DNA of 32,000 nt from NCBI RefSeq assembly GCF_000020025.1, contig NC_010628.1, positions 3,240,001 to 3,272,000 of the forward strand, in the 5' to 3' direction. This document shows positions 7,701 through 21,318 of the stretch, piece by piece. How positions within the stretch are numbered: position 1 is the first letter of the stretch; every line of letters starts with the position of its first letter. The notes below the pieces were generated by a model. The model saw nothing but the letters and a program-made list of their open reading frames with translations, was not told the DNA's origin and ran no database searches. This stretch comes from Nostoc punctiforme PCC 73102 (GTDB taxonomy: Bacteria; Cyanobacteriota; Cyanobacteriia; Cyanobacteriales; Nostocaceae). The position numbers and the translations under genes were made by a program.

Positions 7701-8939
7701 CCCTAGTAATACCAAGGGTGTTACTGTTTCCCCTACTTCCTGTTGTTGCTGCGCTTGGGGTTGCTCCGACGCTCGTTCGCGCAGCGTGCCGGAGGCAGGA
7801 CTCGCTACCGCTTCGCTATCAGCAACGGGTTCAGTTACAGGGGCTTTCTCACCAATCTCAGAACGGATTTGAGCAATTGCTTCAGCAAGGGTTATACCCG
7901 CCGCCGCAGTCGTGGTCTGTCCGGCGGCTCGTGCAATGGTTTGAATAGGTGTGATTGTTTTCCCGACTAGTACAGATGCAAGAATTCCAGCAGCCGCCCA
8001 TAAAATTGGGCGCGGGACTAGTTCGCGGTTTTGTACAAAGCGATCGCGATCTTTTAGTTCAGGAGATTTTTTGAGTACTGGACTTAGCACGCAGCGACAT
8101 CGAGGATGAATTGCTGGAGTATTAGCCGCGATCGCTTGCCAATCATTCAACGGAATAACCAAGCCGTGACGAGAAGCGCAAATATTACACCGTCTTTCGT
8201 CAATTATTGTGTAAAATCTAACTGCTTCAACTAATCCAGACTCGCGGTAAGTCTCTAATCGTCCAGCGTTGTAAGCAAAAGTCAACTCAGTACGAGCAAT
8301 GGTTTCAGCGCGTTTTGAATACCTGCCAGATTTAGTGCCTAGCCTTTCCTCAATGCGCTTGAGTAGTTCATTCCTGCTTATGGGTTGCTTGGTGTCGGGC
8401 TGTGGGGTGACTGCTGCGAGTAAGTCTTGCTGAATCTTTTTGTACTCCGAGTTTGTTACGTCTTGTGCTAACTGGTTAATCCGTCCCCTAATTGCGCTTT
8501 CGGCGGGGATGTTGCGGATTGGTCGGATTTGTACACCTGGTTTTTGTGCATCGTCAAAATAAATCAGGTTAGAGAATGAGTTAAAGTTGACTTTCCTGTT
8601 TGCGTTTTTTACCTCTGTATCGGCGTGGTTACTTCCCGTATTCCAGCCGGATAACCAGATGGAGTACAGCGATCGCTTGAGTGCAGATAGCATATATTCC
8701 TTTACTTGTAGCGGGTTTTTCTGGTTCTTTTTTAGTCGGGTATTTCCGTCATCTGCGGTCGTGGTTTGCAACAAATCTTTATCAATAAATGCTCTTGCTG
8801 CATCTAAAGGAATGTTTGCTAACAACAAAGCACCTTTGGCTTCTAAATTATCTAAATCAGCTAATACTTTCTTTTCTCCCAAAATCAATTTATCGTTGGG
8901 GAATTGGGGAGCGAAAGCACTAAAAACTGAATCAAACAT
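4722..8939 (-). CDS. Giant (1405 aa) minor head protein: MuF/SPP1 gp7 domain + hydrophobic helix + ComEA-type HhH modules + ~800-aa coiled coil
   Basis: MuF motif at aa ~208-288: RAETIARTELTFAYNAGRLETYRESG...IIDERRCNICASRHGLVIPLND...IHPRCRCVLSPV. Hydrophobic segment PILWAAAGILASVLVG. HhH: LDINTATREELQKILPGRSLTVRQVNAILKRRE...IEDLKNVPEIGAKTFERLK, plus a second weaker copy (IEDLKTRLKGKGIGDRTIENM). From aa ~620 to the end the protein is Q/L/N/K/E-rich with heptad-like character. Confidence 0.8.
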   Translation of the reverse strand: MFDSVFSAFAPQFPNDKLILGEKKVLADLDNLEAKGALLLANIPLDAARAFIDKDLLQTTTADDGNTRLKKNQKNPLQVKEYMLSALKRSLYSIWLSGWNTGSNHADTEVKNANRKVNFNSFSNLIYFDDAQKPGVQIRPIRNIPAESAIRGRINQLAQDVTNSEYKKIQQDLLAAVTPQPDTKQPISRNELLKRIEERLGTKSGRYSKRAETIARTELTFAYNAGRLETYRESGLVEAVRFYTIIDERRCNICASRHGLVIPLNDWQAIAANTPAIHPRCRCVLSPVLKKSPELKDRDRFVQNRELVPRPILWAAAGILASVLVGKTITPIQTIARAAGQTTTAAAGITLAEAIAQIRSEIGEKAPVTEPVADSEAVASPASGTLRERASEQPQAQQQQEVGETVTPLVLLGQLDINTATREELQKILPGRSLTVRQVNAILKRREQSAITKIEDLKNVPEIGAKTFERLKQLSEGYQIIPLLDPKSIRTPTQLWAANLGLTKSQSETIFNELQKGSFKDIEDLKTRLKGKGIGDRTIENMQQRAVVIPRQFSPVKETVPVREAGGQGGRGAGEDLLPPDVSAGNAISPRAPLPYSTSGLPPERVIPQKVPTIVTDPLKQELSGIRSGVDDFNQASVKTANDQLNSKELFGKSLKQQASDTQNTVDGFRSFNQQVSTVEDQLLEWDRRLASVEDNYQNLLDPTKPNYFEQAPASIAQIRAQLQKATKTIDGAIENNNKYAAKINEKVDAIEQRVTKLNNQRAAVTSQKTADNLRTNLEEFNTKIQTLESQVSRLPPGAERSQAWLELQRLKRQQSDAIDQIRTVSDQLNDYTNPVIDTARGAINTIEQTNQAIASTAEKLKQLQQRLSKLPVTKNQLEPELRTQYDTVKDLRTVQRRMQSSAKLYRRADEAATRNLNNRATNQENFYNRYDEQYQGFEGNTAPVIERRLSQIQADMRELESMPEGTVAWLLGFNGWDTANIPRDLSLVLNGAPTTSKSLAQIRKMASDLWDKTKQIEANIEVVKRNTEFRFINSDRKVQGFDDLLKNAEDNLTYWLSTRNAALNPSNIGSSNNRLTELQREIQKAIDKKDNAALTELFRQISPDDAYGYARKTLLDMEEWSKRYQDVIGSTAKPGAIASQPITKLYDQYQQANETFLQQLGNSRVNQSQTIEQAYQDAKDIYERLRYDANRIPTFDLKGKATSAEELQKQLQATQERLKGLVNSKQFTNPAVSTNPKVVKAQQQLDALDSTSRNTFKEINDLNQEIDLLKQQGKGTTKNEIALAQKRDLFEQTRQQMKGVGEDIKDLKLGDEAYQQIQQLKSSTEEFRGAIASSQSQLATVNQQLVRLQEQQQILGGGLSQRAIKLSDEIDSLQAKRVDLVKKIGDDYRQVQEMQVQMRSLRNP
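7217..7248. repeat. In-frame octamer tandem repeat (TGCCCCCC x3 on +; GGGGGGCA on the coding strand), G-quadruplex-type motif
   Basis: Sequence cccc tgcccccc tgcccccc tgcccccc tgcc. The coding strand reads GAGGCAGGGGGGCAGGGGGGCAGGGGGGCAGGGG and encodes EAGGQGGRGAG inside the giant ORF. Confidence 0.9.
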
Positions 8940-8947
8940 AATATTTT

Positions 8948-10306
8948 ATGACAACTATTGAAAACTCAAGTAAGCTAATTCCTTTATACGCCACAGAGTT
9001 AGCGCCGTGGTTAGATGAGCTTGATACTGATTTTGTAAGAGAACTTCCAGAAACAGGGGAGACTTACACCCTAGAAGATTTGATCAAGATGATCAAAATC
9101 TGCGTGGTAAATAAAGCGGCGATCAACTTAAAAACCATGAGAGCGGCGGCGGCGGTTGGACTTTACTCCCATAATGACCCTACCCCATATCCTACTGCGA
9201 CAGGCCCGCAAACAATTCAAGAATGGATGCGCGGGAATTTTGACTCCATGAAAGGAAGTCTCCCCGCAGTAGTACGGAAGATGATTAAGCAAGCTTATAG
9301 TCTGGGAACTTCTTGCGGTGAGATTAGATGGTATAAGCGCAAAACTAGTCTGGGTTCCGAGTGGCGATTAAAGTCAATCCCTGTACTTAACCCTCTGCGG
9401 TATTCGTTCGCTGGAGTTAAGGGTAGGGTAGATCGGATTATTTACCGCCCATTGCATGATTCTTCAAAAGCTATACCCTACGCAAAGCTACTTCACATTT
9501 ATTCACCATCACTTGAAGAGCCGGAAGATCCACGGGGCGATCCGGCGGCGGCTTCTGCTTTGCCATTTTACAAATCGCGGCAGATTATGTACAAGCAGTG
9601 GACGCAAGCCGGACAAAGACAGGCCACTGGATTCACAATAATCAAAGCTCCCAGCGAGAAAACAGTAACAATTTTAGGGTCTAATGGCTTACCGCTAAGA
9701 AACGACGATGGTACAATCAAAACTCAACCAGCGCTTTATGCAGCTGTTTCATCAGCCAAAAATATTGAAAATGGCAGCGTTTTCGGAACCGATAAAGAAA
9801 ACGATGTGATTAATGTTCCGGGTGGTGGTGGGGAAGGATTTTTTAATCTTTCACTTACTCACTACGAAAAAATGATTTTCTATGCTTACGGCGTGCCATC
9901 AACAATTTTTAATGACACGGCATCAGGTATTGGGAATTCCGGGATTAATGCCGGACACCGACTAATACTTGATACCCAAATTGAGGATATTGTGAATGAT
10001 TTAAGGGATGAGCTATTAGAAAAAATTGTACGTCCTTTGCTCATGGCTAACTTTGGCCCCAAATTTGAGGATAATTTGGGTGAGTTTAAATCAGATAAGT
10101 TCCTTGACCCGTCACTAGCGGCGACTAGAGTTAGTAATTTGACTATAGCAATGTCCTCTGGGACAATTGACGCAAACGACCTTGAAGCAACTAATAGACT
10201 GCGTGAAGATTTGGGATTGTCGCCATTTACTAAAGAACAATTTGACCAGCAGCAGCTTGCAAAACTATTGGCACAGCAAGAGCAGCAATATGGCGAAGGG
10301 TATTGA
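8948..10306 (+). CDS. Phage portal protein (Mu gp29/DUF935-like, tentative family)
   Basis: 452 aa, ATG start, the size and position expected for a portal next to a MuF gene. Acidic/Q-rich C-terminus (QFDQQQLAKLLAQQEQQYGEGY). No decisive motif was seen, so the family call is tentative. Confidence 0.6.
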   Translation: MTTIENSSKLIPLYATELAPWLDELDTDFVRELPETGETYTLEDLIKMIKICVVNKAAINLKTMRAAAAVGLYSHNDPTPYPTATGPQTIQEWMRGNFDSMKGSLPAVVRKMIKQAYSLGTSCGEIRWYKRKTSLGSEWRLKSIPVLNPLRYSFAGVKGRVDRIIYRPLHDSSKAIPYAKLLHIYSPSLEEPEDPRGDPAAASALPFYKSRQIMYKQWTQAGQRQATGFTIIKAPSEKTVTILGSNGLPLRNDDGTIKTQPALYAAVSSAKNIENGSVFGTDKENDVINVPGGGGEGFFNLSLTHYEKMIFYAYGVPSTIFNDTASGIGNSGINAGHRLILDTQIEDIVNDLRDELLEKIVRPLLMANFGPKFEDNLGEFKSDKFLDPSLAATRVSNLTIAMSSGTIDANDLEATNRLREDLGLSPFTKEQFDQQQLAKLLAQQEQQYGEGY

Positions 10307-10471
10307 TTGGAATTATGTAAAGTCGTACTAGAAGCATAGAAGCATGAGATTTTTGTGTTTTAAAAGTTGAGAAGGGGCGATCGCCCCCTAACTTGTAGGA
10401 AAAATATTATGAAATGAGAATCCTCTAAACTTAATCCATCTCTTTGGTGGCAATTAAATCTCGATGGTGGA

Positions 10472-10714
10472 ATGCTGAATGTTTTTATTCAACACAAACC
10501 AGATGGATACTACGCCTTTATTGGCACTGGTATGCGCGTACAAGTGATGAAATTTCACACTTTACCTGAAGCCAAAGCGTGGTTGTTAAAACAGTTAAAG
10601 CTTTCACTTGATAAAATGCAATCCGAAATGCAACCGGAGATCCCTTGGCTATTGTGGGGATGCCTTGGGGGAGCTTTTGCCCTTTTAGCAACGTGGAGAA
10701 TGTTAATTTTCTAG
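10472..10714 (+). CDS. Hypothetical small protein with a C-terminal TM helix
   Basis: 80 aa, ATG start. C-terminal WLLWGCLGGAFALLATWRMLIF. Confidence 0.5.
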   Translation: MLNVFIQHKPDGYYAFIGTGMRVQVMKFHTLPEAKAWLLKQLKLSLDKMQSEMQPEIPWLLWGCLGGAFALLATWRMLIF

Positions 10715-10722
10715 TTAATAAA

Positions 10723-10956
10723 ATGCCTGCACCAAAATATACTCATTGGAAAAATTCACCATCAAAATATGCGGCTTGTGGTACTCCCAACCCAAGAACA
10801 GGAACTTGCGAGAAGTTGCAAGTAACTTGTCCTCGGTGTTTGAGAATTGTGGAAAGAAGCGATCGCCTCAATGCTCTGCCTCAGCAATGCTACGAGTCTG
10901 TAATTAAAAAAACTGAATCTTGGCTTGCCAAGTTGGGAAGATTTACCAGAGCATAG
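10723..10956 (+). CDS. Hypothetical small Cys-containing protein
   Basis: The track ORF 10645-10956 starts at TTG and overlaps the previous gene, so it is trimmed to the ATG at 10723 (MPAPKYTHWKNSPSKYAACGTPNPRTGTCEKLQVTCPRCLRIV...). Confidence 0.45.
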   Translation: MPAPKYTHWKNSPSKYAACGTPNPRTGTCEKLQVTCPRCLRIVERSDRLNALPQQCYESVIKKTESWLAKLGRFTRA

Positions 10957-11022
10957 CCGATTGCTTTATCAAATCGATGTTATGCAAAATGCTGAAAAAT
11001 TATTGTAGAGGGGCGATCGCCT

Positions 11023-11325
11023 ATGAACAAAGATATAACTATAGTTCCCGCAGATTATCATTTTGAGATTCCTGAAGAAATTGCTAAATGTCCATACTGT
11101 GAGACAAAACTTCATGTTCAAGTGCATGGGTGGACAGAAGAAGATGACGGATGGGTTGCTGATTCGATAGAAATGGTATGCGAATCTGAGCCAGATATTG
11201 ATGACGATGCGTGGGATGATTTCAATGAATCCCATAGCGAAATGCCTTATGTTTATTTGCTGCCAGTGCAAAACACAGTACAGGAGTGGATTAACAATAA
11301 TTTTCGGTTTGATATGGAGCAATGA
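11023..11325 (+). CDS. Hypothetical acidic protein with a CxxC motif
   Basis: 100 aa, ATG start. Contains CPYCETKLHV and an acidic stretch EPDIDDDAWDDFNESH. Its stop overlaps the next start (ATGA at 11322). Confidence 0.55.
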   Translation: MNKDITIVPADYHFEIPEEIAKCPYCETKLHVQVHGWTEEDDGWVADSIEMVCESEPDIDDDAWDDFNESHSEMPYVYLLPVQNTVQEWINNNFRFDMEQ

Positions 11326-12194
11326 AATACGCTAAAAGTTTGCTCTACGGAATAATTGTAGATGCTGTTACTTCCGATTACCAAGATTACGCAAACTGGC
11401 AATTAAGATGCCCCAAATGCGGGGAGCCAGTTCACTTGATTGGTGCATCAGAGCGAGTTGAACACGTAAGATTAGCGCCAAAATCAAAGCAGATAGTTTT
11501 GGTAAGTAGTGCCAAAATCAGTGCATCATTTGCTCATTTCAAGGGATTAGCCGATGAAGCTTGTGAAAACTTCAATTCCCAAATATCTAAGAACTATATT
11601 GAAAAATTTGAAAGAATAAATAGAGAGCAAAGGCTCAAGGTATATAATCAAAGATTTTTAGAAATAGTTGGCTATAACAAAAGTATGAAGGGATGCTTTT
11701 TTGATAACTTTAAAAAAGTAAATAAAATTAATAACAAAGTTGCTAAAAGTATTGAGCAAGATGCAGCAAAAGATTTTTACTCAACAGTATCACAATTAAC
11801 TAAACTTGCAGGTGGGGCAAGAATTTTATTAGAAGGCATAAAATCTGATAAGTACCCATTAAATCGTTTTGACACAAGTCGAGCTAAAGATGAGGAGGTT
11901 AAACAGTTTGTTCGGTGGGTACAAGAAGTTGACATTGATAGACAAATGATACTTCTTGAAGAAGCAATTGCCTTTTTAAAAACTCGCGCAGCGAGGGCGA
12001 TCGCCTTACAGCTACTTGAATTATGTTTTTCTAGATTAATCTTCCATCGCCCAGGTACGATTGATTTAATCAAGATTTCAGGCAACTCCATAGCCGAAGA
12101 AGATAGCAAATACAGGGAGTTAATCGAGCGATGTGTTACCGAATTAGTGCAAATATTTGCGCTTACCGATTGGGCAGGTGCGGTAGGAAATTGA
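11322..12194 (+). CDS. Hypothetical protein with an N-terminal CoiA-like Zn-finger motif (tentative); AT-rich accessory gene
   Basis: 290 aa. RCPKCGEPVHL...SFAHFKGLADEACENF resembles the CPxC...HFAH...C N-terminal signature of CoiA-type proteins. The central part (about 11560-11960) is markedly AT-rich and HIP1-free. Confidence 0.55.
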   Translation: MKYAKSLLYGIIVDAVTSDYQDYANWQLRCPKCGEPVHLIGASERVEHVRLAPKSKQIVLVSSAKISASFAHFKGLADEACENFNSQISKNYIEKFERINREQRLKVYNQRFLEIVGYNKSMKGCFFDNFKKVNKINNKVAKSIEQDAAKDFYSTVSQLTKLAGGARILLEGIKSDKYPLNRFDTSRAKDEEVKQFVRWVQEVDIDRQMILLEEAIAFLKTRAARAIALQLLELCFSRLIFHRPGTIDLIKISGNSIAEEDSKYRELIERCVTELVQIFALTDWAGAVGN

Positions 12195-12215
12195 AGTTGA
12201 ATAGAGGTTAAAACC

Positions 12216-12380
12216 GTGAAAGTATCTCTGGAATATCTTTACCATTACAGTTGTGACCACTGCCAGAAATGGTGGACAATTGGCGACATCAAGCCAGATA
12301 TAAATAGCCAAGCGTTATGTCCACACTGCGGTAAAACAAGTTTAATTGTAGAAATCGTTCAATTTCAAACTAAGATATGA
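12216..12380 (+). CDS. Small Zn-ribbon protein (GTG start), not in the ORF track
   Basis: VKVSLEYLYHYSCDHCQKWWTIGDIKPDINSQALCPHCGKTSLIVEIVQFQTKI*. Two CxxC pairs. It fills the gap between neighbouring + strand genes. Confidence 0.4.
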   Translation: MKVSLEYLYHYSCDHCQKWWTIGDIKPDINSQALCPHCGKTSLIVEIVQFQTKI

Positions 12381-12414
12381 CAGGTTTTTGTATGAAGAAG
12401 TAGAGGCGATCGCT

Positions 12415-12675
12415 ATGAGCGAATATAAATTAGTTATCGAGTTCATCAACGAATCAAAGGATTTTGCATTGGGTTTTGAGTCAGGCAAAGTTTACGAGCA
12501 GATGAAAAATCAAATTCCTGAGATTGAAGGAGTGTTTGGTTCTGAAAACTTTGAGCAATTTAAACTGATGTCGCAAGCGATGAACTATTCAATTACTCAA
12601 ATAAATAACCTCAATAACTCACAAGAGTTTCCTAATGATTATTTGTTGCTCAAGTTCGTATTTCAACAAGGCTAG
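12415..12675 (+). CDS. Hypothetical protein
   Basis: The track ORF starts at TTG 12388. The first ATG is at 12415 (MSEYKLVIEFINESKDF...). Confidence 0.5.
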   Translation: MSEYKLVIEFINESKDFALGFESGKVYEQMKNQIPEIEGVFGSENFEQFKLMSQAMNYSITQINNLNNSQEFPNDYLLLKFVFQQG

Positions 12676-12721
12676 CCAATTATATGCTGAGGGGGATTAG
12701 TAATTTTGATATACTGCCGAC

Positions 12722-12742
12722 AGGTGTCGCCGGAGGTGTCGC
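12722..12742 (+). promoter_or_regulatory. Direct repeat AGGTGTCGC (x2, 12-bp period) immediately upstream of the double-HTH gene
   Basis: cAGGTGTCGCcggAGGTGTCGCacgTTG. The second copy ends 3 nt before the TTG start at 12746. Possible regulator binding site; its function is untested. Confidence 0.3.
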
Positions 12743-12745
12743 ACG

Positions 12746-13240
12746 TTGTCGGAATTAAACAAGCAAGAGGCTTTAAAGTATTTAGGGGTAAGCGATCGCA
12801 CCCTGGAGAGATGGGTGAAAAAGTACAAAATCGCTGTGAGGTATGAAAATACTGATAGGGGGCGATCGCCTTTCTTTGACATATCAGAATTAGATAGGGT
12901 AAAGCTTGAGCGCGACCCCACTTATCGCCCTGCAATTTCGACGGGACTAGTGCCAGTTACTGTTACTCAAGAGGAGCGATCGCTTGCTGCAATTGCTGAA
13001 AGCTTAAAAACAATTGCTTGCGCCACCTCAAGCATTACTGCCTATTATCAAGTAGCAGCTATTTTAGCAAAGAAGTCTTTGAGCATAAGAGAAGCTGCGA
13101 TAATGTCAGGTTTATCTATAAACTTTTTGAAATACCATTTAAAAACGGGTAACTTAGTAGGCAAGAAATTAGGTAGGTCTTGGAGAATTTGCCCTCAAAG
13201 CTTTGAGCGTTTTATGGTAGATATTTTTAAAGAGACATGA
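12746..13240 (+). CDS. DNA-binding protein with two MerR/excisionase-type HTH domains (candidate excisionase/RDF or small terminase-like)
   Basis: The only in-frame start is TTG at 12746. N-terminal LNKQEALKYLGVSDRTLERWVKKYKI and C-terminal LSIREAAIMSGLSINFLKYHLKTGNLVGKKLGRSWRICPQSFERFM both fit the HTH_17/excisionase pattern. Confidence 0.6.
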   Translation: MSELNKQEALKYLGVSDRTLERWVKKYKIAVRYENTDRGRSPFFDISELDRVKLERDPTYRPAISTGLVPVTVTQEERSLAAIAESLKTIACATSSITAYYQVAAILAKKSLSIREAAIMSGLSINFLKYHLKTGNLVGKKLGRSWRICPQSFERFMVDIFKET

Positions 13241-13530
13241 ATTATTTTTGGTTATTTACATTTAGATTTGCTTGCATATCAATGTTTCGTTTGATAGGCA
13301 CGATTGAAAGCCGATTGCTTGAGCTACGCGAAAAAGAAAATATTGAATATACTTTTAGTTTTGTAGGAGAAAACCTTTACCAGCTTATTCCCTGCCCTAG
13401 CAATTTTAGAATCCTTGAAAATTTATCTAATGTAGTTTGGACTCGGAAAGAAGGCGATCACTTGCTAATTAAAATGGAAACACTTACAGCGATTGAAGAC
13501 CTGGTAATTAGTTTAAATAGCACACACTGA
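13237..13530 (+). CDS. Hypothetical protein
   Basis: 97 aa, with an ATGA overlap onto the previous gene. It is the last gene of the + strand block. Confidence 0.5.
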   Translation: MNYFWLFTFRFACISMFRLIGTIESRLLELREKENIEYTFSFVGENLYQLIPCPSNFRILENLSNVVWTRKEGDHLLIKMETLTAIEDLVISLNSTH

Positions 13531-13797: not shown

Positions 13798-14184
13798 TTA
13801 TTCTGAATACAAAAGTTGATATCCCAAGCTTAACCGCCTAACGAATTCTTCAGTATTTCGATTGCCCCAGACTGGATTTTTATGATCGATAAGCCAGTTT
13901 TGGGAATTGTGACAAATCTGTGTGTGGCATCTTTCGCATGTTGGAAACCAGTTGCTTCCTAAATTATTTTTACCGTAACTGGTATGGTGTAACTCATTAT
14001 ACTTTCGTCTCAAACAGCAGCAACACAAGGAATCATACTTTTCAAGAAACTGACGAGCGATCGCACACTCTCTACTGTAATTGTTGCCGTAGCGCACCGA
14101 GTAATCTAATTGCGGTTTAGTAGGTACTCGTGCAGTAGTTCTACTTGTTTGCTGCTTGGTGCGTGTCCCATCATTTCTTCCCAT
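13798..14184 (-). CDS. HNH-superfamily (Cys/His) nuclease-like protein
   Basis: 128 aa, ATG start. CCCCLRRKYNELHHTSYGKNNLGSNWFPTCERCHTQICH fits the C..C...HH.tY....CxxCH pattern. It overlaps the 3' end of the ATPase gene by 79 nt and is paralogous in layout to 18801-19172. Confidence 0.6.
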   Translation of the reverse strand: MGRNDGTRTKQQTSRTTARVPTKPQLDYSVRYGNNYSRECAIARQFLEKYDSLCCCCLRRKYNELHHTSYGKNNLGSNWFPTCERCHTQICHNSQNWLIDHKNPVWGNRNTEEFVRRLSLGYQLLYSE

Positions 14185-15791
14185 TTTTCTTTGATTAGGT
14201 CTGGTGTCGGCACATTCAAGAGTTGGTCTGCCCAGGCAACTAAATCTTTGTGCCAGTCGGTTTGAATATCCTCTGGAGATGCTAAAGGAATAGTTAGAGG
14301 AAGTTGGTTGATTTGTCGCAGTCCTTTTGGCTTATTGCCCTTTTTCTTAAATTGCTTGTAAGTGTGGTGGGTGGGATGTATGGCCAAGGATTCGGGAACA
14401 GCGCCACTGACAATGCAGCTGTAGGCTAATTCGTCAACGTGTTTCTTTCTGGGGTCATCCTTTTTCCATTGTTTAGCTAACTGTCTTGCAGTGGCATTGA
14501 GAGCTATTAGGAGATAGTTATTCCTCATTTGTGCCGAAATATTTAAATCGTTGGCGTTAGACGACTGGTTTAAGGCAATGAAAATTATTTTGTATTTTCT
14601 ACCTTCTGAACCTAATCGTCTCAGTGCTAGTTCAATAATTTCTTTGTTTGAGAAGCTATCTAGGCAGGCATTAATCTCATCACCAAAGACAATGATTGTC
14701 GGTTCTAAATCTAGCTGCTGTTTATTAAGTTCTCGCCGGGAATCGAGTAGCTCAATCAGTAGAATTAATTGCTGTTCAATTAGCGCGAAATCAGCGATCG
14801 CATGGATGCCTAGTTCACCCCACAAGACATTGACATTGGCATGAGGGTCAAGAGCTAAAACTTGTGCTGGCTCATCTTTGGTCAACCACCCTGCGACCCA
14901 AACCGCCACGGAAGTTTTACCACTACCAGAATTACCAGCAACAATAATCCCTACTGCATCATCAACTAAATCCCGCCAGTCGTAGAATTCAAGCTCACCC
15001 ACTTTTCCGGGACATAAAGCTTCGTAATCAATTTCTTCGGTCAACTCCAAAGGAACAGGGACAGCCGATAAAAGCCTATTTGCTTCACTCCTGTGCTTTG
15101 CTTCTTCTGCCTCACATTTAGCTATCTCTGCCTTAAATTTAGCCAACTGTAGCAAACGCTGATACTCAGCTAATTGATTGTGCTTTTCAGCCTGCTCTCG
15201 GTCAAACTCGCGCTCACCTTCACTCTTATCCTTGATGCGAGTAATTTGGTCGTTGCGAGTTACCCGATCCTTTATGTACTCAGTTTCAACAGCGATCTTG
15301 TGTGTAGTGATTTCGCGCTGTTGTTCGTTAAGTTGAATTTCTTGATTTAAATCAGTTTTCAACTGCTCAAAATACGCTACAAACTCTTTTTTGTAGCGTT
15401 GCAATCGCTTTGAGGTCAGCAGTGTGCTACTGGACAATAAAATTAAACTTGCCATTGCCCAATTCTTAGCAATAGGATTTGTAGCCGGAATTGTCCGCAG
15501 CCGCGTTGCTTTGTCAGACAGAATAAAAGTTCCTTGCGGTTGAAAACGCGGATTAGTGGGTACGTAGTTTTCTTGTCTCCAATATCCTTCTGGGATAATA
15601 TACTGCTTGTCTTGAGTGCAATACTTAACAGCGCGATTATTATTTTTTTTGGGCTTAAAGCAGAATTCAATCACATCATATTTAGTGCCAGACATTGAAT
15701 AGACTGACAATCCTAAGCCCGTCAAAGACAGAGCGATCGCCAGCCCAATGCTGAATTGATTCTGTTGTTTGAACAACTTCAACCAATCCAT
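14106..15791 (-). CDS. Membrane-anchored FtsK/TraB/HerA-type P-loop ATPase (putative DNA translocase)
   Basis: The track start at 15794 is TTG. The ATG at 15791 overlaps the upstream TGA (TGATG). Two N-terminal TM segments (FSIGLAIALSLTGLGLSVYSM; WAMASLILLSSSTLL), a charged coiled coil, Walker A GIIVAGNSGSGKTS, LALDPH, Walker B-like TIIVFGDEINA, and KIIFIALNQS (compare FtsK ILATQRP). Confidence 0.7.
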   Translation of the reverse strand: MDWLKLFKQQNQFSIGLAIALSLTGLGLSVYSMSGTKYDVIEFCFKPKKNNNRAVKYCTQDKQYIIPEGYWRQENYVPTNPRFQPQGTFILSDKATRLRTIPATNPIAKNWAMASLILLSSSTLLTSKRLQRYKKEFVAYFEQLKTDLNQEIQLNEQQREITTHKIAVETEYIKDRVTRNDQITRIKDKSEGEREFDREQAEKHNQLAEYQRLLQLAKFKAEIAKCEAEEAKHRSEANRLLSAVPVPLELTEEIDYEALCPGKVGELEFYDWRDLVDDAVGIIVAGNSGSGKTSVAVWVAGWLTKDEPAQVLALDPHANVNVLWGELGIHAIADFALIEQQLILLIELLDSRRELNKQQLDLEPTIIVFGDEINACLDSFSNKEIIELALRRLGSEGRKYKIIFIALNQSSNANDLNISAQMRNNYLLIALNATARQLAKQWKKDDPRKKHVDELAYSCIVSGAVPESLAIHPTHHTYKQFKKKGNKPKGLRQINQLPLTIPLASPEDIQTDWHKDLVAWADQLLNVPTPDLIKEKWEEMMGHAPSSKQVELLHEYLLNRN

Positions 15792-16363
15792 CAATATCTC
15801 CTAATCATCTTCCAAAGAACTGGTAATAAGGCCAAACCTAAAGATGCTCCCATCACAATCTGCAATTGCAAGTTGATAGTCAGTCCATCGGTAGGCTGTA
15901 CTTTGATTTCGTAGTTTTTTACTTCAACTTCAAAAGCTTGAATTGATTCATTGGCATATTGCATAAGCTGTCTGTATTCCTTAGTGGTATTCCATGAAAT
16001 ACCAGCAGAAGCTATTAACTTACTACAGCCAAATACTACTCGTGAAATATCTCGTACTTTGTACTCGTTTGAAAGGTCAATTCCAGCTTCTCCGATGTCA
16101 ATCATGGCGGGAATGGAGCCAAGAGAAAATCCCAACAATCCCGCGCTCATTGCTCCTAAGCCCAAATCAATGGCTAGGAGACATAGAGTTATGTTGGCAG
16201 AATTCGCAGTCAATGTAAGTAAAAAATTACGAATTAGTGTAAACGTCGCACAAGCAGATAAATAATCTTTCTCTAGACGATCTAAATAATCTTGATATTC
16301 ACGAGGCAGTTGACTTGCTTGGGAGTCCTCCTGCTGGTCTATAACGTCCGTTTCAAGTAACAT
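15791..16363 (-). CDS. Polytopic membrane protein, translationally coupled to the FtsK-like ATPase
   Basis: 190 aa, ATG start. Hydrophobic stretches LLAIDLGLGAMSAGLLGFSLGSIPAMI and MGASLGLALLPVLW. Confidence 0.65.
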   Translation of the reverse strand: MLLETDVIDQQEDSQASQLPREYQDYLDRLEKDYLSACATFTLIRNFLLTLTANSANITLCLLAIDLGLGAMSAGLLGFSLGSIPAMIDIGEAGIDLSNEYKVRDISRVVFGCSKLIASAGISWNTTKEYRQLMQYANESIQAFEVEVKNYEIKVQPTDGLTINLQLQIVMGASLGLALLPVLWKMIRRY

Positions 16364-16386: not shown

Positions 16387-16427
16387 ACTACCCACTGCAA
16401 TCTGACGTGATTGCAGTGGGTTTTATT
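16387..16427. terminator. Bidirectional rho-independent terminator-like hairpin
   Basis: Perfect 12-bp stem CCCACTGCAATC (16391-16402) / GATTGCAGTGGG (16409-16420) with a 6-nt loop. TTTTATT follows on the + strand, and an A/T run sits on the other side. It lies directly after the stop of gene 16426-17079. Confidence 0.65.
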
Positions 16428-17079
16428 AAATACCTAAAGCGTTTCGTAGTCGCCGGATTATCCCCATTGGGCTTTTTACCTCTGCTTGATAATCGCGTTT
16501 GTGAATTAGAGATAAATCAGCGTTGTCTCCATGCTCTAAAAGATGTTCAGCCACTTTAAGTTCATAGTTTTGGTTTTCCTGCAACTGCTTTAGCTGGATA
16601 CGCGAACCTTGTTCAAGCAGGCGAACTCGTCCTTCAACATCTTGGATTACCATGTCAGCAAACAGCTTGGCTCTGTTGTAGTCAATTGCCCAGCTATGCC
16701 TTCCTTTTTCCATCTCAAGTGAGGCTTTGAACTGTTCCCGCAGTTCATCCATATCATCCAAGTATTTGATGTTGGCAAAGCTAGCTTGACGCTGGGCTTT
16801 TTGAATATCCACCTCGGCTTTGCTGCCACTGGCAACAAATTCACCCAAGAATTTATTCCAGTCGCTCTCATTCTTAATTTTCGTTTTTACCGTTTCCGTA
16901 ATTGCAGGCATGAGGGCGGCAGCCATTTTCCCCTCTTGATACATCGACCCCAGTTTTTGAAGCGTGGCTTGATCGCCTGTCAATGCCTTCTGTAATTCCG
17001 CCACAGATACACCAGCAACCCTTTGTGCTGCCTTACCTGCCTTGGTTCTGGTATTGATACGGGTTTTGATGTGTTTCAT
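16426..17079 (-). CDS. Hypothetical alpha-helical protein
   Basis: 217 aa, ATG start, followed by a terminator hairpin. No motif recognised. Confidence 0.6.
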   Translation of the reverse strand: MKHIKTRINTRTKAGKAAQRVAGVSVAELQKALTGDQATLQKLGSMYQEGKMAAALMPAITETVKTKIKNESDWNKFLGEFVASGSKAEVDIQKAQRQASFANIKYLDDMDELREQFKASLEMEKGRHSWAIDYNRAKLFADMVIQDVEGRVRLLEQGSRIQLKQLQENQNYELKVAEHLLEHGDNADLSLIHKRDYQAEVKSPMGIIRRLRNALGI

Positions 17080-17216: not shown

Positions 17217-17777
17217 TCAACTAGGGACTTTGAAGAGGTTGAGAATTTTTGCTTCTGTGGTGCGAAATTTGTCTCTAGCTTCTTCTATGCGACCAGAGAA
17301 AGCTGTAGCCTTGCTATTGAAGTGTTGGTTGGCTTCTTGTAGGCGCGTGACTAGATACTGTTCCACCTCTTGCATCATTTCATCAGTCTGTTGCAAATCT
17401 TGGTCAACTTGGTAATCAACCCAGGCGACGATCGCGGATTTGATGCGATCCTTGAGCGAGGCGCGATCGCTTAATACCCAGTCCATTTTTTGGCTAATCG
17501 ACTGAACTTCTTCAACCGATAAACTCACTTCTAAAGTGGAAGCAACTTGTTGAATTAAAGTTTGTTTTTGGGTATGACTCAATTCATCATTTGTACTTGC
17601 TGGAACTATTTCACTTGAGCCTGACAGTTCATCAACAATCTTAGATATCAAATTCTCTGTAGGTTCAACGTCGGCGTAGTTGCTGACAATAATATGCTTT
17701 CTGATTTGGTCAAGAGTAAATCTTTTACCCCGGTTTTTTAGTCGAGTTTGAATTACTTTAATTTTATTTTGGTTCAT
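17217..17777 (-). CDS. Hypothetical protein
   Basis: 186 aa, ATG start, 2 nt after the stop of the upstream gene. No motif recognised. Confidence 0.6.
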   Translation of the reverse strand: MNQNKIKVIQTRLKNRGKRFTLDQIRKHIIVSNYADVEPTENLISKIVDELSGSSEIVPASTNDELSHTQKQTLIQQVASTLEVSLSVEEVQSISQKMDWVLSDRASLKDRIKSAIVAWVDYQVDQDLQQTDEMMQEVEQYLVTRLQEANQHFNSKATAFSGRIEEARDKFRTTEAKILNLFKVPS

Positions 17778-17779
17778 GG

Positions 17780-18172
17780 TTATGCAAATAATTTGTACAA
17801 AACTTCTCCTAACTCAGCAATAGAATAAGTACCGTCGTTTCGATAACTTATGTCCATGCTTCTAAACGCTCGATAAAACTTATGTTTCGATAAAGACGGA
17901 CACTTTTTGTAGATGTAATCCTTGATAACCGCGCCCTTAACAGAGCCATTTAGATCGGTGGCTGACTCTACCACCAAATTCAATACATGAGATGCGATCG
18001 CCTTCCTTGGTGCGACCCTTTTACACTTAGCGACAAACCGCAAATTATCAATGGTGAGCGGCAACCGAGCATTCACTAACTGATTTTTTAGCTCTTGCCA
18101 TTGGTAAGCACGGACTGACTTCCCTAAGCAAGTTTCATAAATTATTCTTGTTCTCTCCTTCTGTAGGGGCAT
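17780..18172 (-). CDS. Hypothetical protein (first gene after the 18173-18418 motif array)
   Basis: 130 aa, ATG start. A 12-bp palindrome lies 22 bp upstream of the start. Confidence 0.6.
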   Translation of the reverse strand: MPLQKERTRIIYETCLGKSVRAYQWQELKNQLVNARLPLTIDNLRFVAKCKRVAPRKAIASHVLNLVVESATDLNGSVKGAVIKDYIYKKCPSLSKHKFYRAFRSMDISYRNDGTYSIAELGEVLYKLFA

Positions 18173-19405: not shown

Positions 19406-19783
19406 TCAAGAATTAAATAAATTCAGTTGTCCAAGGTATTCGCGTTTCAGCATTTTCTTGTGTGCCATTGCTTTCAAATCCATCCGACAGTGACACACGG
19501 AACATAATGCTTTTAGATTGCAGCGCGTACAATCCTCTGGAATATGGTTCAAGTGAGCGGTCGTCAGTACAAATCGAGTAGGTTTAGCATTAATTTCGTG
19601 CAGTAAGTCACAGGAGTCTGTGCAATGAACTTTTGGCACAACTCGGTCAATGAACTCACTCAGAGTTTCCCCAACTTTCCTGCACTCCCGCCCACACTCT
19701 TCGCATTTCCAGTTGGCTTCGGTTTTGACTTGTAGGGCTATCTCCTGCCAACGGGAGGGATAGCGATCGCGCTGCATCGGCAT
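19406..19783 (-). CDS. HNH endonuclease
   Basis: WKCEECGRECRK...VLTTAHLNHIPEDCTRCNLKALCSVCHCRMD is the classical HNH layout (CxxC ... H-N-H ... CxxCH). Confidence 0.75.
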   Translation of the reverse strand: MPMQRDRYPSRWQEIALQVKTEANWKCEECGRECRKVGETLSEFIDRVVPKVHCTDSCDLLHEINAKPTRFVLTTAHLNHIPEDCTRCNLKALCSVCHCRMDLKAMAHKKMLKREYLGQLNLFNS

Positions 19784-20438: not shown

Positions 20439-20957
20439 CTATAGCGAAGTTGATTGAATTTTCTCAACATCAGCTTGGAGTTTTCCTAGTTCCGAGCGCA
20501 TATTAGCGATCGCCAGTACAATCTCACCCTGCTTGGTAATCACAGCTAGCGCCGCCCCATGCTCTGCTAGCTTGTCTTTGTTTTCAAATATTTGGTCATA
20601 CAATCTGCCAATATCCCCTTTATTAAAATTGCTTTGCTCTTTCAAGGAAGTTAACTGCTGGTGAATCAAGTTTAGTTGTTGATCGTGTACTGAATCGCGC
20701 CGATCGCTATCCGCCTCAACTTTGCCGATCGCTTCTTCCAATCCTTTACTGACACTAGCGATCGCCCCTTCAATCTTGCTTTCCCTAGAATCTTGAACCT
20801 GCCAAGCTGCGATCGCTAAAGCAGCAATTCCAATATAATTTCCAGTATCGCTGGGTTTAAACGAGAATGGCATCCCATGAAAAAATAGAATGACAATTAA
20901 CCCAGCAATCAATATTAATAAAAATTTATTCTTGAATATTAGTTGAAAAAGTCCCAT
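20439..20957 (-). CDS. Membrane protein (2 TM) with a cytoplasmic/periplasmic coiled coil
   Basis: 172 aa, ATG start. FLLILIAGLIVILFF and YIGIAALAIAAW, then a helical Q/E/L-rich region. Overlaps the FHA gene by 32 nt. Confidence 0.6.
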   Translation of the reverse strand: MGLFQLIFKNKFLLILIAGLIVILFFHGMPFSFKPSDTGNYIGIAALAIAAWQVQDSRESKIEGAIASVSKGLEEAIGKVEADSDRRDSVHDQQLNLIHQQLTSLKEQSNFNKGDIGRLYDQIFENKDKLAEHGAALAVITKQGEIVLAIANMRSELGKLQADVEKIQSTSL

Positions 20958-21318
20958 CTTCTTTAATATCTGTTATTTCATTTAAAAAGATAGCTTTAGG
21001 ATATTGGCGCGGGCCAAAAGTAATCGTGTCTTGATGCTTTAAATCAGCTTGACTTACTCTAGTTCCGTTAATCCAAACCCCGTTGGTGCTTTTGCTTTCT
21101 GGAATCATCAGCAACCCATCTATTACGAGGTAATAGGGGGTCTTTTTGCCCCTATTTGGCGGCATCAATACAAAGGTACAATGTTGGCGAGAAACAAATC
21201 TATCAATGACCAAAATGTCGCAGCTAGAGTGTTTTCCCAGGACGTAAATAGATAAATTTAAATCGTAGGTGATAGGAGGGAGATCGTTATCTAAATAAAT
21301 TAATAGCTGATAACGCAT
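20926..21318 (-). CDS. FHA (forkhead-associated) domain protein
   Basis: 130 aa: YVLGKHSSCDILVIDRFVSRQHCTF...VIDGL...SKSTNGVWINGTRV...LKHQDTITFG matches the G-R...S-x-x-H...S-x-N-G...N-G FHA signature. Confidence 0.75.
   Translation of the reverse strand: MRYQLLIYLDNDLPPITYDLNLSIYVLGKHSSCDILVIDRFVSRQHCTFVLMPPNRGKKTPYYLVIDGLLMIPESKSTNGVWINGTRVSQADLKHQDTITFGPRQYPKAIFLNEITDIKEDGTFSTNIQE

What the first reader, a model, noticed from the sequence alone, without database searches (positions are those of the whole stretch)
13798..16363. Membrane protein + membrane-anchored FtsK/TraB-like ATPase + overlapping HNH inside a prophage with no recognisable terminase
Seen: a 190-aa polytopic membrane protein is translationally coupled (TGATG at 15793-15789) to a ~561-aa protein. 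That protein has two N-terminal TM helices, ~130 aa of charged coiled coil and a C-terminal P-loop NTPase (GIIVAGNSGSGKTS; LALDPH; TIIVFGDEINA; KIIFIALNQS). An HNH-like ORF overlaps its 3' end by 79 nt. Established: a TM anchor, linker and FtsK/HerA-type motor is the layout of FtsK/SpoIIIE, Streptomyces TraB and type IV coupling proteins. In actinomycete integrative conjugative elements (e.g. pSAM2), one FtsK-like Tra protein, a rolling-circle Rep and an integrase suffice for transfer. Inference: together with the Rep_1-like ORF (23578-24177) and the serine integrase, this element may combine capsid genes with an AICE-like dsDNA transfer function. Alternatively the ATPase may be an unconventional packaging, segregation or exclusion factor. 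I could not recognise a terminase large subunit anywhere in the 31 kb that holds the portal, MuF, protease-like and capsid genes.
Basis: partly seen in the sequence, partly recalled or inferred. Interest (0 to 1): 0.65.

Follow-up and report, generated by a model that had tools for sequence, protein, structure and literature searches.

The report
Membrane DNA-pump cassette in cyanobacterial prophage
The three genes are real and belong to an uncharacterised six-gene cassette, built around a membrane-anchored FtsK/HerA-type ATPase and a small HNH nuclease, that prophages and plasmids of filamentous cyanobacteria carry; it is not the phage's missing packaging motor, because an ordinary terminase lies just outside the window.

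Summary
All three ORFs exist as described. The 190-aa membrane protein is coupled to the ATPase through TGATG. The 561-aa ATPase has an N-terminal membrane anchor, a helical hairpin and a P-loop core. The 128-aa HNH ORF overlaps the ATPase's 3' end by 79 nt. The HNH ORF is conserved, always in the -1 frame, in nine loci, although gene callers usually miss it. The AF2 model (pLDDT 82.5) matches the conjugation coupling protein TcpA, FtsK and EssC best, and no terminase. The 'no terminase' premise is a window-edge artefact: one contig links the window to a canonical TerS and TerL (phrog_2, E 1.4e-21) 9.6-12.7 kb to its left. The host is Nostoc punctiforme. The trio is the 3' half of a conserved cassette, g130-g186-g217-membrane protein-ATPase-HNH. 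The cassette survives in decayed prophages. Relatives sit on plasmids, including pCC7120delta of Anabaena PCC 7120 and a 12.6-kb Pseudanabaena plasmid. Every named culture or plasmid host is a filamentous cyanobacterium. No Pfam family and no paper describes it. My best reading is inferred, not shown: a TraB/TcpA-like membrane DNA translocase that moves the element between cells. Exclusion/defence and segregation remain live rivals. The Rep_1 link (the AICE idea) is not conserved.

The parts
17780..18172 (-). g130: first gene of the conserved cassette. A small basic protein with no family match.
   Evidence: Homologues stand at the same position in all long-form loci. There is no Pfam or PHROG hit.
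17217..17777 (-). g186: second cassette gene. A helical, coiled-coil-like protein with a weak KfrA_N-like N-terminus.
   Evidence: It matches phrog_33840 (unknown function) at E 1.1e-7 and Pfam KfrA_N only weakly, at E 0.053. It is conserved in all long-form loci.
16426..17079 (-). g217: third cassette gene, a helical protein. It has a homologue on plasmid pCC7120delta.
   Evidence: It is 217 aa in every long-form locus. A profile of it matches the 223-aa protein of pCC7120delta at E 1.7e-16.
16390..16421 (-). Perfect 13-bp stem-loop in the 62-nt gap between g217 and the membrane-protein gene. It may be an attenuator or an RNA-stability element.
   Evidence: Found by the terminator scan. The predicted energy is -23.8 kcal/mol, and a hairpin of different sequence stands at the same place in six other loci. 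Four of the 9 consensus pairs show compensatory changes.
15791..16363 (-). mem190: polytopic membrane protein, translationally coupled to the ATPase.
   Evidence: Hydrophobic segments lie at about residues 47-88 and 169-187, and the junction is TGATG. It is conserved in all long-form loci. A profile of it matches the 192-aa protein of pCC7120delta at E 8.6e-10.
14106..15791 (-). Membrane-anchored FtsK/HerA-superfamily P-loop ATPase. Layout: TM1, small beta domain, TM2, helical hairpin, RecA-like core (residues 265-470), family-specific HPTH segment, C-terminal three-helix bundle.
   Evidence: The AF2 model has pLDDT 82.5. Foldseek gives TcpA at 7.6e-6 and FtsK and EssC at 2e-4. Invariant residues include G281, K292, D315, H317, E372, R392, E396, R398, K399 and H472-P473-T474. 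A profile search found 1042 cluster representatives at E <= 1e-3.
13798..14184 (-). Small HNH-type nuclease gene. It overlaps the last 79 nt of the ATPase gene in the -1 frame.
   Evidence: The invariant residues are C54, C57, H66, H67, N78, C83, C86, H87 and H92, and they are also kept in a Symploca locus whose ATPase is only 30% identical. The frame relation is the same in nine loci. The AF2 model is weak (pLDDT 52.7) but shows beta-beta-alpha at residues 65-91. The four best Foldseek matches are all HNH nucleases, but they are not significant (E 0.4-1).

Best explanation
Shown. The three ORFs are the downstream half of a conserved six-gene cassette: g130, g186, g217, a hairpin, the membrane protein, the ATPase and the HNH gene. 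The cassette lies at the distal end of the early/replication arm of a temperate tailed prophage of Nostoc punctiforme. That prophage has its own canonical TerS/TerL, so the cassette is not the packaging motor. The ATPase is a new subfamily of the FtsK/HerA superfamily. It has no Pfam family and, as far as named hosts show, occurs only in cyanobacteria. It is anchored in the cytoplasmic membrane and is paired with a small polytopic membrane protein. Related genes sit on plasmids as well as in prophages. Inferred, and my commitment. The ATPase assembles at the membrane as a ring-shaped dsDNA translocase of the TraB/TcpA/FtsK kind. The coupled membrane protein serves as its channel or anchor. The upstream helical proteins (g186, g217) act as DNA-binding or scaffold partners. 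The HNH enzyme nicks or cuts the element's DNA to give the motor a substrate or to release it. The biological role would be virion-independent movement of the element's DNA across a membrane or septum into a neighbouring or contacting cell. This would be the cyanobacterial counterpart of Streptomyces TraB plus Spd proteins. The direction and purpose of the DNA movement are not shown.
For: Fold and motifs. The best PDB fold matches are TcpA (the FtsK-like conjugation coupling protein, which by my own knowledge has two N-terminal TM helices), then FtsK and EssC. The 'EGRK...NQS...SAQM.N' segment aligns with HerA's 'EGRK...SQRP...LSQM.N'. Distant members hit FtsK_SpoIIIE (1.3e-8), DUF87 (7.5e-8) and TrwB_AAD_bind.

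Membrane coupling. The start and stop codons overlap with a polytopic membrane protein. Of 146 family members with a recognisable Walker A, 94 have a hydrophobic N-terminal segment. In most variant loci a small membrane protein stands directly beside the ATPase.

Not the terminase. A canonical TerS and TerL belong to the same element.

Independence from virion production. The cassette is intact in a decayed prophage (L029/L061), where the lysin gene is broken and only tail-gene fragments remain before host genes. It also sits at the element edge next to host genes in L010 and L060.

Plasmid carriage. Twenty-one PLSDB plasmids match, from Planktothrix, Nostoc, Annamia and Pseudanabaena. One is a 12.6-kb plasmid that holds little beyond a CyRepA1 replication gene and this gene cluster. 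On pCC7120delta, homologues of g217, mem190 and the ATPase stand in the same order. A 26.6-kb Fischerella contig carries a family member together with a Mob_Pre relaxase and a NikA-like gene.

Host range. All 16 cyanobacterial genera named in these results are, by my own knowledge, filamentous: Nostoc, Anabaena, Aulosira, Tolypothrix, Rivularia, Richelia, Halotia, Scytonema, Fischerella, Calothrix, Dendronalium, Planktothrix, Phormidium, Pseudanabaena, Symploca and Annamia. The only other names are three metagenome bins, labelled Synechococcus, Merismopedia and Obscuribacterales. This parallels TraB in mycelial actinomycetes (PMC4447253).
Against: No experiment or expression data bear on function.

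No relaxase or T4SS gene stands near the cassette in the prophage loci. MOB-suite types 17 of the 21 carrier plasmids as non-mobilizable, although it would not recognise a TraB-like system.

I found no clt-like 8-mer repeat array near the cassette.

The lytic-looking 147-kb Nodularia phage kac65v162 encodes a protein of the same architecture, and its kac65v161 counterpart is a remote Foldseek match. Transfer by cell contact makes little sense for such a phage.

An ATPase paired with a nuclease, kept in prophage remnants, is also the signature of a defence system.

The partner proteins of the long-form and short-form loci are not detectably homologous.

The host-range pattern may reflect sampling.
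Confidence: 0.38

Rival explanations
1. Superinfection exclusion or defence. The membrane-anchored translocase sits at the entry point of foreign DNA. Together with the HNH nuclease it captures and degrades incoming phage or plasmid DNA, which protects the lysogen or the plasmid host.
For: ATPase-plus-nuclease pairs are typical of defence systems (my own knowledge). The cassette stays intact in decayed prophages and at element edges. Its neighbours include anti-defence and accessory genes: AcrVA2-like, ArdC-like, and Acb2/Tad1-like. A lytic-type Nodularia phage encodes a protein of the same architecture.
Against: No PADLOC model matches convincingly; only mad8 appears, at E 1.3e-4 with no stretch that passes on its own. 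The cassette is co-directional with a long early operon rather than being a stand-alone island. Its presence on a 12.6-kb plasmid that holds little else is unusual for a defence system. HNH is missing from most short-form loci.
Confidence: 0.22
2. Maintenance or segregation of the element. An FtsK/SpoIIIE-like pump keeps copies of the plasmid or excised phage genome from being trapped or lost at closing septa, or tethers replication to the membrane. The helical proteins would act as KfrA-like partition helpers.
For: The fold is FtsK-like. g186 has a weak KfrA_N resemblance. Family members occur on plasmids next to actin-like (ALP_N) partition genes in L072, and the protein upstream on pCC7120delta looks ParM-like to me. 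The named hosts are filamentous cyanobacteria.
Against: An integrated prophage needs no such system. A nuclease partner is not expected for segregation. Adjacency to partition genes was seen in only two cases.
Confidence: 0.15
3. Unconventional packaging ATPase. An FtsK/HerA-type motor plus the HNH nuclease act as a split terminase for this phage.
For: There is a weak PHROG hit to phrog_2666 'terminase large subunit' (E 6e-5). By my own knowledge, HNH genes often accompany terminases, as with HK97 gp74. Viral fold matches include A32-like packaging ATPases. No TerL lies within the window.
Against: A canonical TerS (phrog_51, 5e-27) and TerL (phrog_2, 1.4e-21, with Walker A and B and a nuclease-like 'GLDVGDGGD' segment) are on the same element. 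The protein is membrane-anchored and coupled to a membrane protein. The cassette is not next to head genes in other loci, and it occurs on plasmids without capsid genes. No terminase structure appears among the top 50 fold matches.
Confidence: 0.03
4. Protein export rather than DNA transport: an EssC/T7SS-like ATPase that secretes small phage- or plasmid-encoded proteins.
For: EssC domains are among the fold matches. An FHA-domain gene lies upstream in the same operon. Small secreted or membrane proteins follow the ATPase in many short-form loci.
Against: There is one ATPase domain rather than EssC's three. The FHA domain is not fused to it. No WXG100-like substrates were recognised. The conserved nuclease partner and the C-terminal helical bundle point to DNA.
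Confidence: 0.05

Closest known systems
TcpA, the FtsK-like type IV coupling protein of Clostridium perfringens plasmid pCW3 (PDB 6o1w/6o1x)
   Same: It is the best structural match (E 7.6e-6, TM 0.46 on the target). By my own knowledge it has the same overall layout: two N-terminal TM helices followed by a single FtsK-type motor domain, carried on a mobile element.
   Different: Sequence identity is only 15-18%. No Tcp-type partners (a VirB4-like TcpF, a VirB6-like TcpH) and no relaxase stand next to the cassette in the prophage loci. The long helical hairpin, the HPTH segment and the HNH partner are absent from TcpA.
Streptomyces TraB with Spd proteins (pSVH1, pIJ101, pSAM2-type AICEs; PMC4447253)
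   Same: A single FtsK-like translocase plus small membrane proteins, carried on plasmids and integrated elements of multicellular, filament-forming bacteria. The ATPase here has a C-terminal helical domain where, by my own knowledge, TraB has its clt-binding winged helix.
   Different: No sequence-level relationship was shown. No clt-like repeats were found. Here the carrier is a complete tailed prophage. The Rep_1 association is not conserved. The HNH partner has no TraB counterpart. Transfer itself is untested.
FtsK/SpoIIIE chromosome translocases (PDB 2ius, 6t8b)
   Same: The motor domain has the same fold, at E 2e-4. The membrane anchor, linker, motor order is the same. Three distant family members reach Pfam FtsK_SpoIIIE.
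   Different: The window protein itself has no PF01580 hit. It has two TM helices rather than four (FtsK figure from my own knowledge). No alpha domain was recognised. It is encoded by a mobile element.
HerA-NurA and other HerA-nuclease pairs
   Same: An FtsK/HerA-superfamily ATPase is encoded next to, and here overlapping, a nuclease gene. HerA is the best PDB sequence match, across the arginine-finger and sensor segment.
   Different: The match is only E 0.26. HerA is soluble and has, by my own knowledge, a HAS barrel domain. The nuclease here is HNH, not NurA.
HK97 gp74-type phage HNH proteins that assist terminases; Gme HNH (PDB 4h9d)
   Same: A small (about 120-aa) HNH protein with CxxC and CxxCH zinc-ligand pairs, in a tailed phage. 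4h9d is the top fold match, though not a significant one.
   Different: By my own knowledge those genes lie beside TerS/TerL. This one overlaps an FtsK-like ATPase gene about 24 kb from TerL (window 13798 versus TerS at about -9600 and TerL at about -11000) and travels with that ATPase in loci without head genes. There is no Pfam HNH hit.

Membership tests
FtsK/HerA superfamily of P-loop pumping ATPases | Walker A (GxxGxGK[ST]) and Walker B (hhhhDE) in a RecA-like core | tested here: met
   GNSGSGKTS (G286-S294) and IIVFGDE (D371, E372) are invariant or nearly invariant in 47 homologues. The model shows a RecA-like beta-alpha core at residues 265-470.
FtsK/HerA superfamily of P-loop pumping ATPases | Conserved arginine-finger segment and polar sensor residue after the strand that follows Walker B (FtsK 'ATQRP', HerA 'SQRP'; recalled from my own knowledge) | tested here: met
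   R392, E396, R398, K399, Q409 and S410 are conserved. 'EGRKYKIIFIALNQS' aligns with HerA 'EGRKFGVGLTIVSQRP', but that alignment as a whole scores only E 0.26.
FtsK/HerA superfamily of P-loop pumping ATPases | Fold closer to FtsK, HerA, VirD4 and A32 than to other ASCE ATPases | tested here: met
   The top nine PDB matches are TcpA, FtsK or EssC chains. Named viral matches are A32-like packaging ATPases and 'DNA translocase FtsK'. RecA, KaiC, Vps4 and NSF score lower.
FtsK/SpoIIIE family proper (Pfam PF01580) | Match to the family profile above its threshold | tested here: not met
   The window protein has no PF01580 hit at E <= 0.1. Only 3 of 42 distant relatives match it.
FtsK/SpoIIIE family proper (Pfam PF01580) | C-terminal gamma winged-helix domain that reads polar DNA motifs | tested here: inconclusive
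   A C-terminal three-helix bundle (residues 513-559) is predicted. It was not compared on its own, and no repeated 8-mers were seen nearby.
Type IV coupling proteins (VirD4/TrwB/TcpA) | Two N-terminal TM helices followed by a nucleotide-binding domain | tested here: met
   TM1 is at residues 14-32. TM2, at about 108-130, is supported by homologues and by the model. TcpA is the best fold match.
Type IV coupling proteins (VirD4/TrwB/TcpA) | Encoded together with a relaxase and a mating-pair-formation (VirB4) system | tested here: not met
   No relaxase or VirB4 Pfam family is on record within 10 kb of the cassette in the long-form loci examined. Only one distant member, L070, has Mob_Pre and NikA-like neighbours.
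Streptomyces TraB-type conjugation / AICE (pSAM2-like) | Element made of an integrase, a rolling-circle Rep and an FtsK-like Tra, travelling together | tested here: not met
   All three gene types are in the window. But Rep_1 has no homologue near the cassette in L005, L006, L010, L011, L028 or L029, and the element is a tailed prophage with head and terminase genes.
Streptomyces TraB-type conjugation / AICE (pSAM2-like) | Transfer of double-stranded DNA that depends on the ATPase | not testable with these tools
   This needs mating and spread assays.
Terminase large subunit | Terminase-type ATPase fused to an RNase H-like nuclease, encoded with TerS and the portal | tested here: not met
   No terminase structure is among the top 50 fold matches. 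There is only a weak phrog_2666 hit. The real TerS and TerL were found elsewhere in the element.
HNH (beta-beta-alpha-Me) endonucleases | Catalytic His-His/Asn...Asn motif flanked by CxxC and CxxC/H zinc ligands | tested here: met
   C54-x2-C57 ... H66 H67 ... N78 ... C83-x2-C86 H87 are invariant in eight sequences, including the Symploca one. The same pattern was picked up by the motif scan.
HNH (beta-beta-alpha-Me) endonucleases | Profile or fold match to known HNH domains | tested here: inconclusive
   There is no Pfam hit and no PDB profile hit. The AF2 model has pLDDT 52.7 and shows beta-beta-alpha at residues 65-91. The four best Foldseek matches are HNH nucleases, but at E 0.4-1.

The most novel reading that the evidence does not exclude
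Prophages and plasmids of filamentous cyanobacteria, most of them typed 'non-mobilizable', carry a TraB-like single-motor system. It would move their double-stranded DNA directly from cell to cell, along a filament or between touching filaments, without virions and without a type IV secretion system. This would be a second, independent origin of Streptomyces-style conjugation and spreading in a multicellular bacterium.
Probability: 0.18. Interest if true: 0.85.

Novelty: new variant of a known kind. Interest (0 to 1): 0.55.

Why it matters
Natural DNA exchange among cyanobacteria is poorly understood. The only conjugation machinery recognised in their plasmids is the MPF_C type, as on pCC7120alpha (PMC8600333).

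This cassette is an unannotated FtsK/HerA branch carried by mobile elements. A profile search found 1042 cluster representatives. It has no Pfam family and no tblastn match (E <= 1e-3) in 50,697 GenBank phage records.

It is present in two genetically tractable model strains: the N. punctiforme prophage and pCC7120delta of Anabaena PCC 7120. Whether filamentous cyanobacteria have a TraB-like transfer or spread system, or a new membrane-based exclusion system, can therefore be tested directly.

There is also a practical annotation point. The overlapping HNH gene is missed by most gene callers.

Tried and rejected
1. Terminase substitute. Rejected after I walked left of the window and found TerS and TerL.

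2. g290 (window 11322-12194) as a hidden terminase ATPase. Rejected: it has no P-loop, only a zinc-ribbon-like CPKCGEP.

3. Programmed -1 frameshift that would fuse the ATPase to HNH. The frame relation is conserved. But no conserved slippery heptamer exists, and each locus has its own start codon in the HNH frame. Not supported.

4. An inovirus-like module (Rep_1 plus a pI/Zot-like ATPase). Rejected: the topology is the reverse of pI (by my own knowledge pI has its ATPase N-terminal to its TM helix; here the TM helices come first), the upstream proteins have no TM helices, and Rep_1 is not linked to the cassette elsewhere.

5. A known defence system. PADLOC gave only a marginal mad8 hit.

6. 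Cultured-phage homologues. tblastn of three family members against INPHARED found nothing. The Nodularia phage gp140 shares the architecture but is only a marginal profile hit (E 0.014).

7. Homology between the partner proteins of long-form and short-form loci. hhalign found none, so the recurring 'helical protein, small membrane protein, ATPase' layout is only an analogy there.

8. clt-, cos- or att-like repeats in the 268-nt gap after HNH, and inverted repeats flanking the inverted portal segment. Nothing beyond chance and HIP1 palindromes.

9. Rfam. No family reaches its threshold anywhere in the window.


Full report
**1. The observation**

On the minus strand, the ORF listing gives three ORFs: 15791-16363 (190 aa), 14106-15794 (562 aa from a TTG; 561 aa from the ATG one codon later) and 13798-14184 (128 aa). 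The junction reads ...AGA TAT TGA TGG..., so the stop codon of the first ORF overlaps the ATG of the second. The quoted P-loop strings are all present.

Hydropathy finds several hydrophobic segments in the 190-aa protein and a strong one at residues 14-32 of the ATPase. The second membrane helix (about 108-130) is weaker in this copy. It scores 1.9-2.1 in two homologues and is helical in the model. The HNH ORF overlaps the ATPase gene by 79 nt.

**2. What the ATPase is**

The protein has no Pfam family above threshold. Its best PDB sequence match is HerA (E 0.26). The aligned stretch covers the segment after Walker B: 'EGRKYKIIFIALNQS...ISAQMRN' against 'EGRKFGVGLTIVSQRP...ILSQMTN'.

A search of 5.8 billion proteins found 81 relatives. 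All named ones are cyanobacterial. Thirty are full length, and about fifty share only the core of about 240 aa. In an alignment of 47 of them, the Walker A lysine, D315/H317, the Walker B glutamate, R392, E396, R398, K399 and an H-P-T motif at 472-474 are invariant.

AlphaFold2 on that alignment gave a confident model (pLDDT 82.5). It shows an N-terminal helix, a small beta domain, a helical hairpin of about 130 residues, a RecA-like core and a C-terminal three-helix bundle.

Foldseek against the PDB puts the pCW3 coupling protein TcpA first (E 7.6e-6), followed by FtsK motor domains and EssC. No terminase is in the top 50. Against viral models, the named matches are A32-type packaging ATPases, 'DNA translocase FtsK' proteins of siphoviruses, and an uncharacterised Nodularia phage protein.

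A profile search of 1.84 billion cluster representatives found 1042 members at E <= 1e-3. Some of the most distant reach Pfam DUF87, FtsK_SpoIIIE or TrwB_AAD_bind.

I conclude that this is a new subfamily of the FtsK/HerA superfamily that is usually membrane-anchored. Of 146 members with a recognisable Walker A, 94 have a hydrophobic N-terminal segment.

**3. The HNH ORF is a real gene**

Gene callers skipped it in most contigs, and only seven database proteins match it. Even so, tblastn finds it downstream of every long-form ATPase at 45-86% identity.

It always lies in the +2 (that is, -1) frame and overlaps the ATPase's last codons in nine loci. A Symploca locus whose ATPase is only 30% identical has a homologous ORF just downstream. 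That ORF keeps C54, C57, H66, H67, N78, C83, C86, H87 and H92.

Profile and fold evidence is weak. There is no Pfam hit and no PDB profile hit. The model has pLDDT 52.7 but shows a beta-beta-alpha unit where the motif lies. The four best Foldseek matches are all HNH nucleases, at non-significant E-values.

I found no conserved slippery site that would suggest a frameshift fusion.

**4. The trio is half of a larger cassette**

Homologues of the three upstream genes (130, 186 and 217 aa) precede the membrane protein in every long-form locus. In the loci aligned at sequence level the set is g130-g186-g217-mem190-ATPase-HNH. These are the window, two Nostoc MAGs, two IMG/VR contigs, a Tolypothrix prophage and an ENA contig. 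The same gene sizes and order are seen in Aulosira and three more contigs. One of those, L064, has an 87-aa DUF5754 gene in place of HNH.

A strong hairpin stands between g217 and the membrane-protein gene. Its sequence differs from locus to locus, and four of the 9 consensus pairs show compensatory changes.

**5. The terminase**

Nothing in the window is a candidate. g290, which has weak AAA-like hits, has no P-loop. I extended the element leftwards with contigs that encode the window's 310-aa protein. These contigs carry the major head protein (phrog_29), a neck protein and more structural genes.

A further step used the 183-aa protein at the far end of that contig. The step showed that the host is Nostoc punctiforme. 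It also gave a 15.3-kb contig (L066) that physically joins the window's 310-aa gene to a Terminase_2 small subunit. After a 71-aa ORF and an RNase H/Rv2179c-like gene comes a 543-aa protein. It matches phrog_2 'terminase large subunit' at E 1.4e-21 over residues 31-502 and has Walker A 'GTGKS', Walker B 'LLIEDEAD' and a nuclease-like 'GLDVGDGGD' segment.

In window coordinates, TerS lies at about -10190 to -9600 and TerL at about -12680 to -11050. 'No recognisable terminase' is therefore an effect of where the window was cut, and the packaging hypothesis falls.

**6. Where the cassette and its relatives live**

The cassette is never next to terminase or portal genes in the other loci.

In Nostoc sp. 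S62 and Aulosira FACHB-615 it sits at the edge of the element, 1-4.5 kb from host genes (AcrB; two-component sensors). In L029/L061 the neighbouring lysin gene is broken into two out-of-frame pieces. Only tail-gene fragments remain before host metabolic genes, yet all six cassette ORFs are intact. This points to selection independent of virion production.

Short-form relatives occur in many IMG/VR contigs and genomes. They usually stand beside a small polytopic membrane protein, with a helical protein upstream and often a secreted protein downstream. Those partners are not detectably homologous to the long-form ones.

Relatives are also on plasmids. Twenty-one PLSDB records match, from Planktothrix, Nostoc, Annamia and Pseudanabaena. 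One is a 12.6-kb Pseudanabaena plasmid that holds little more than a CyRepA1 replication gene, small membrane proteins and a family ATPase (profile E 2e-138).

On pCC7120delta of Anabaena/Nostoc PCC 7120, homologues of g217 (E 1.7e-16), mem190 (E 8.6e-10) and the ATPase (N-terminal domain 42% identical) stand in the same order with a 4-nt overlap. A Fischerella contig combines a distant member with a Mob_Pre relaxase, a NikA-like gene and a protelomerase.

The 16 cyanobacterial genera named across these results are all filamentous by my own knowledge. The only other names are three metagenome bins, labelled Synechococcus, Merismopedia and Obscuribacterales.

**7. Interpretation**

Shown: this is an accessory module, borne by mobile elements, with a membrane-anchored FtsK/HerA-type ATPase at its centre. 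It is not the packaging motor.

Inferred: it is a DNA translocase working at the membrane. The coupled membrane protein would be its channel or anchor, and the HNH enzyme would process the DNA.

I favour a TraB/TcpA-like role in virion-independent movement of the element between cells. Four things point that way:
- the best fold match is a conjugative coupling protein;
- the family is shared by plasmids and prophages, including very small plasmids;
- it persists in dead prophages;
- its named hosts are multicellular filaments, as with TraB and the Spd proteins in Streptomyces (PMC4447253).

This is not demonstrated. An exclusion or defence function fits the nuclease partner and the persistence in remnants about as well. 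It would also better explain the protein of the same architecture in the 147-kb Nodularia phage kac65v162, which has its own TerL. A segregation role is also possible.

The Rep_1 gene does not travel with the cassette.

**8. Novelty**

I found no paper describing this cassette. The recognised cyanobacterial conjugation system is the MPF_C type of pCC7120alpha (PMC8600333). MOB-suite types most carrier plasmids as non-mobilizable.

I rate it a new variant of a known kind: an FtsK/HerA membrane translocase with a distinct partner set and host range. It is of moderate interest now. It would be of high interest if cell-to-cell DNA transfer were shown.

Noticed in passing
window 16390-16421: A perfect 13-bp stem-loop lies in the 62-nt gap between g217 and the membrane-protein gene. 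A hairpin stands at the same position in six other loci with different stem sequences, and four of the 9 consensus pairs change on both sides. It may attenuate read-through, or it may be an RNA-processing or RNA-stability element. No Rfam family matches.
   Followed up: partly
window 19406-19783 (-): A second, unrelated HNH-type ORF of 125 aa (CEEC...HLNH...CSVCH) lies upstream in the same operon. Homologues occur in two Planktothrix loci that also carry a family ATPase (L020, L022), and on pCC7120delta, where it is annotated as an HNH endonuclease.
   Followed up: partly
window 31371-31931 (+), next to the serine recombinase at 29993-31333 (-): This ORF starts 37 nt from the recombinase gene. 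It holds only the C-terminal two-thirds of a PLD/Nuc domain (Pfam profile positions 66-131 of 132, with the HxK...D motif) plus a ComEA-like helix-hairpin-helix. It looks like a host gene interrupted by the element. A phospholipase D gene is listed among genes interrupted by recombinase-bearing elements in heterocyst-forming cyanobacteria (PMC4874684). The other half of the gene was not reached.
   Followed up: partly
window 8948-13530 (+) versus 4722-8939 (-): The portal gene and six small downstream genes are transcribed in the opposite direction to MuF, the protease-like gene and the capsid genes. The portal and MuF genes start only 8 nt apart. If this segment were inverted, the portal would lie directly after the ATPase-HNH pair. 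No flanking inverted repeats were found, only HIP1 palindromes.
   Followed up: partly
L067 826-3905 (about window -12680 to -9600): TerS and TerL are separated by a 71-aa ORF and a 187-aa Rv2179c-like exonuclease gene that also matches a PHROG 'RNase H' family (phrog_2259, E 1e-56). They lie downstream of the head and neck genes rather than upstream of the portal, which is an unusual order for a packaging module.
   Followed up: no
L007 8209-8532 (about window -5620 to -5300): A 107-aa protein with an Acb2/Tad1 hairpin domain is embedded among the neck and tail genes. By my own knowledge, such proteins are sponges for anti-phage signalling molecules.
   Followed up: no
window 4722-8939 (-): A 1405-aa protein fuses a MuF domain (residues 189-285) with helix-hairpin-helix motifs (414-472) and a long SbcC-like coiled-coil region. 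A fragment of its N-terminus survives downstream of the cassette in IMG/VR locus L028.
   Followed up: no
window 20926-21318 (-): A free-standing FHA-domain protein lies in the early operon. FHA genes also lie near the cassette in the Tolypothrix prophage (L005) and are annotated in the Nodularia phage (gp085).
   Followed up: no
L074 7222-7626 (pCC7120delta); L013 5029-5304; L014 9445-9735: A small protein family with the N-terminal motif 'KPLGYF...LEQ.YGS.F' precedes the ATPase cluster both on pCC7120delta and in the short-form Rivularia-type loci. It links cassette variants that otherwise share only the ATPase.
   Followed up: no
L064 11665-11928: In one long-form locus the HNH gene is replaced by an 87-aa DUF5754 gene that starts at the end of the ATPase gene. 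Its reading frame, the same +2 frame that HNH uses elsewhere, is open across the ATPase's last 31 nt.
   Followed up: no
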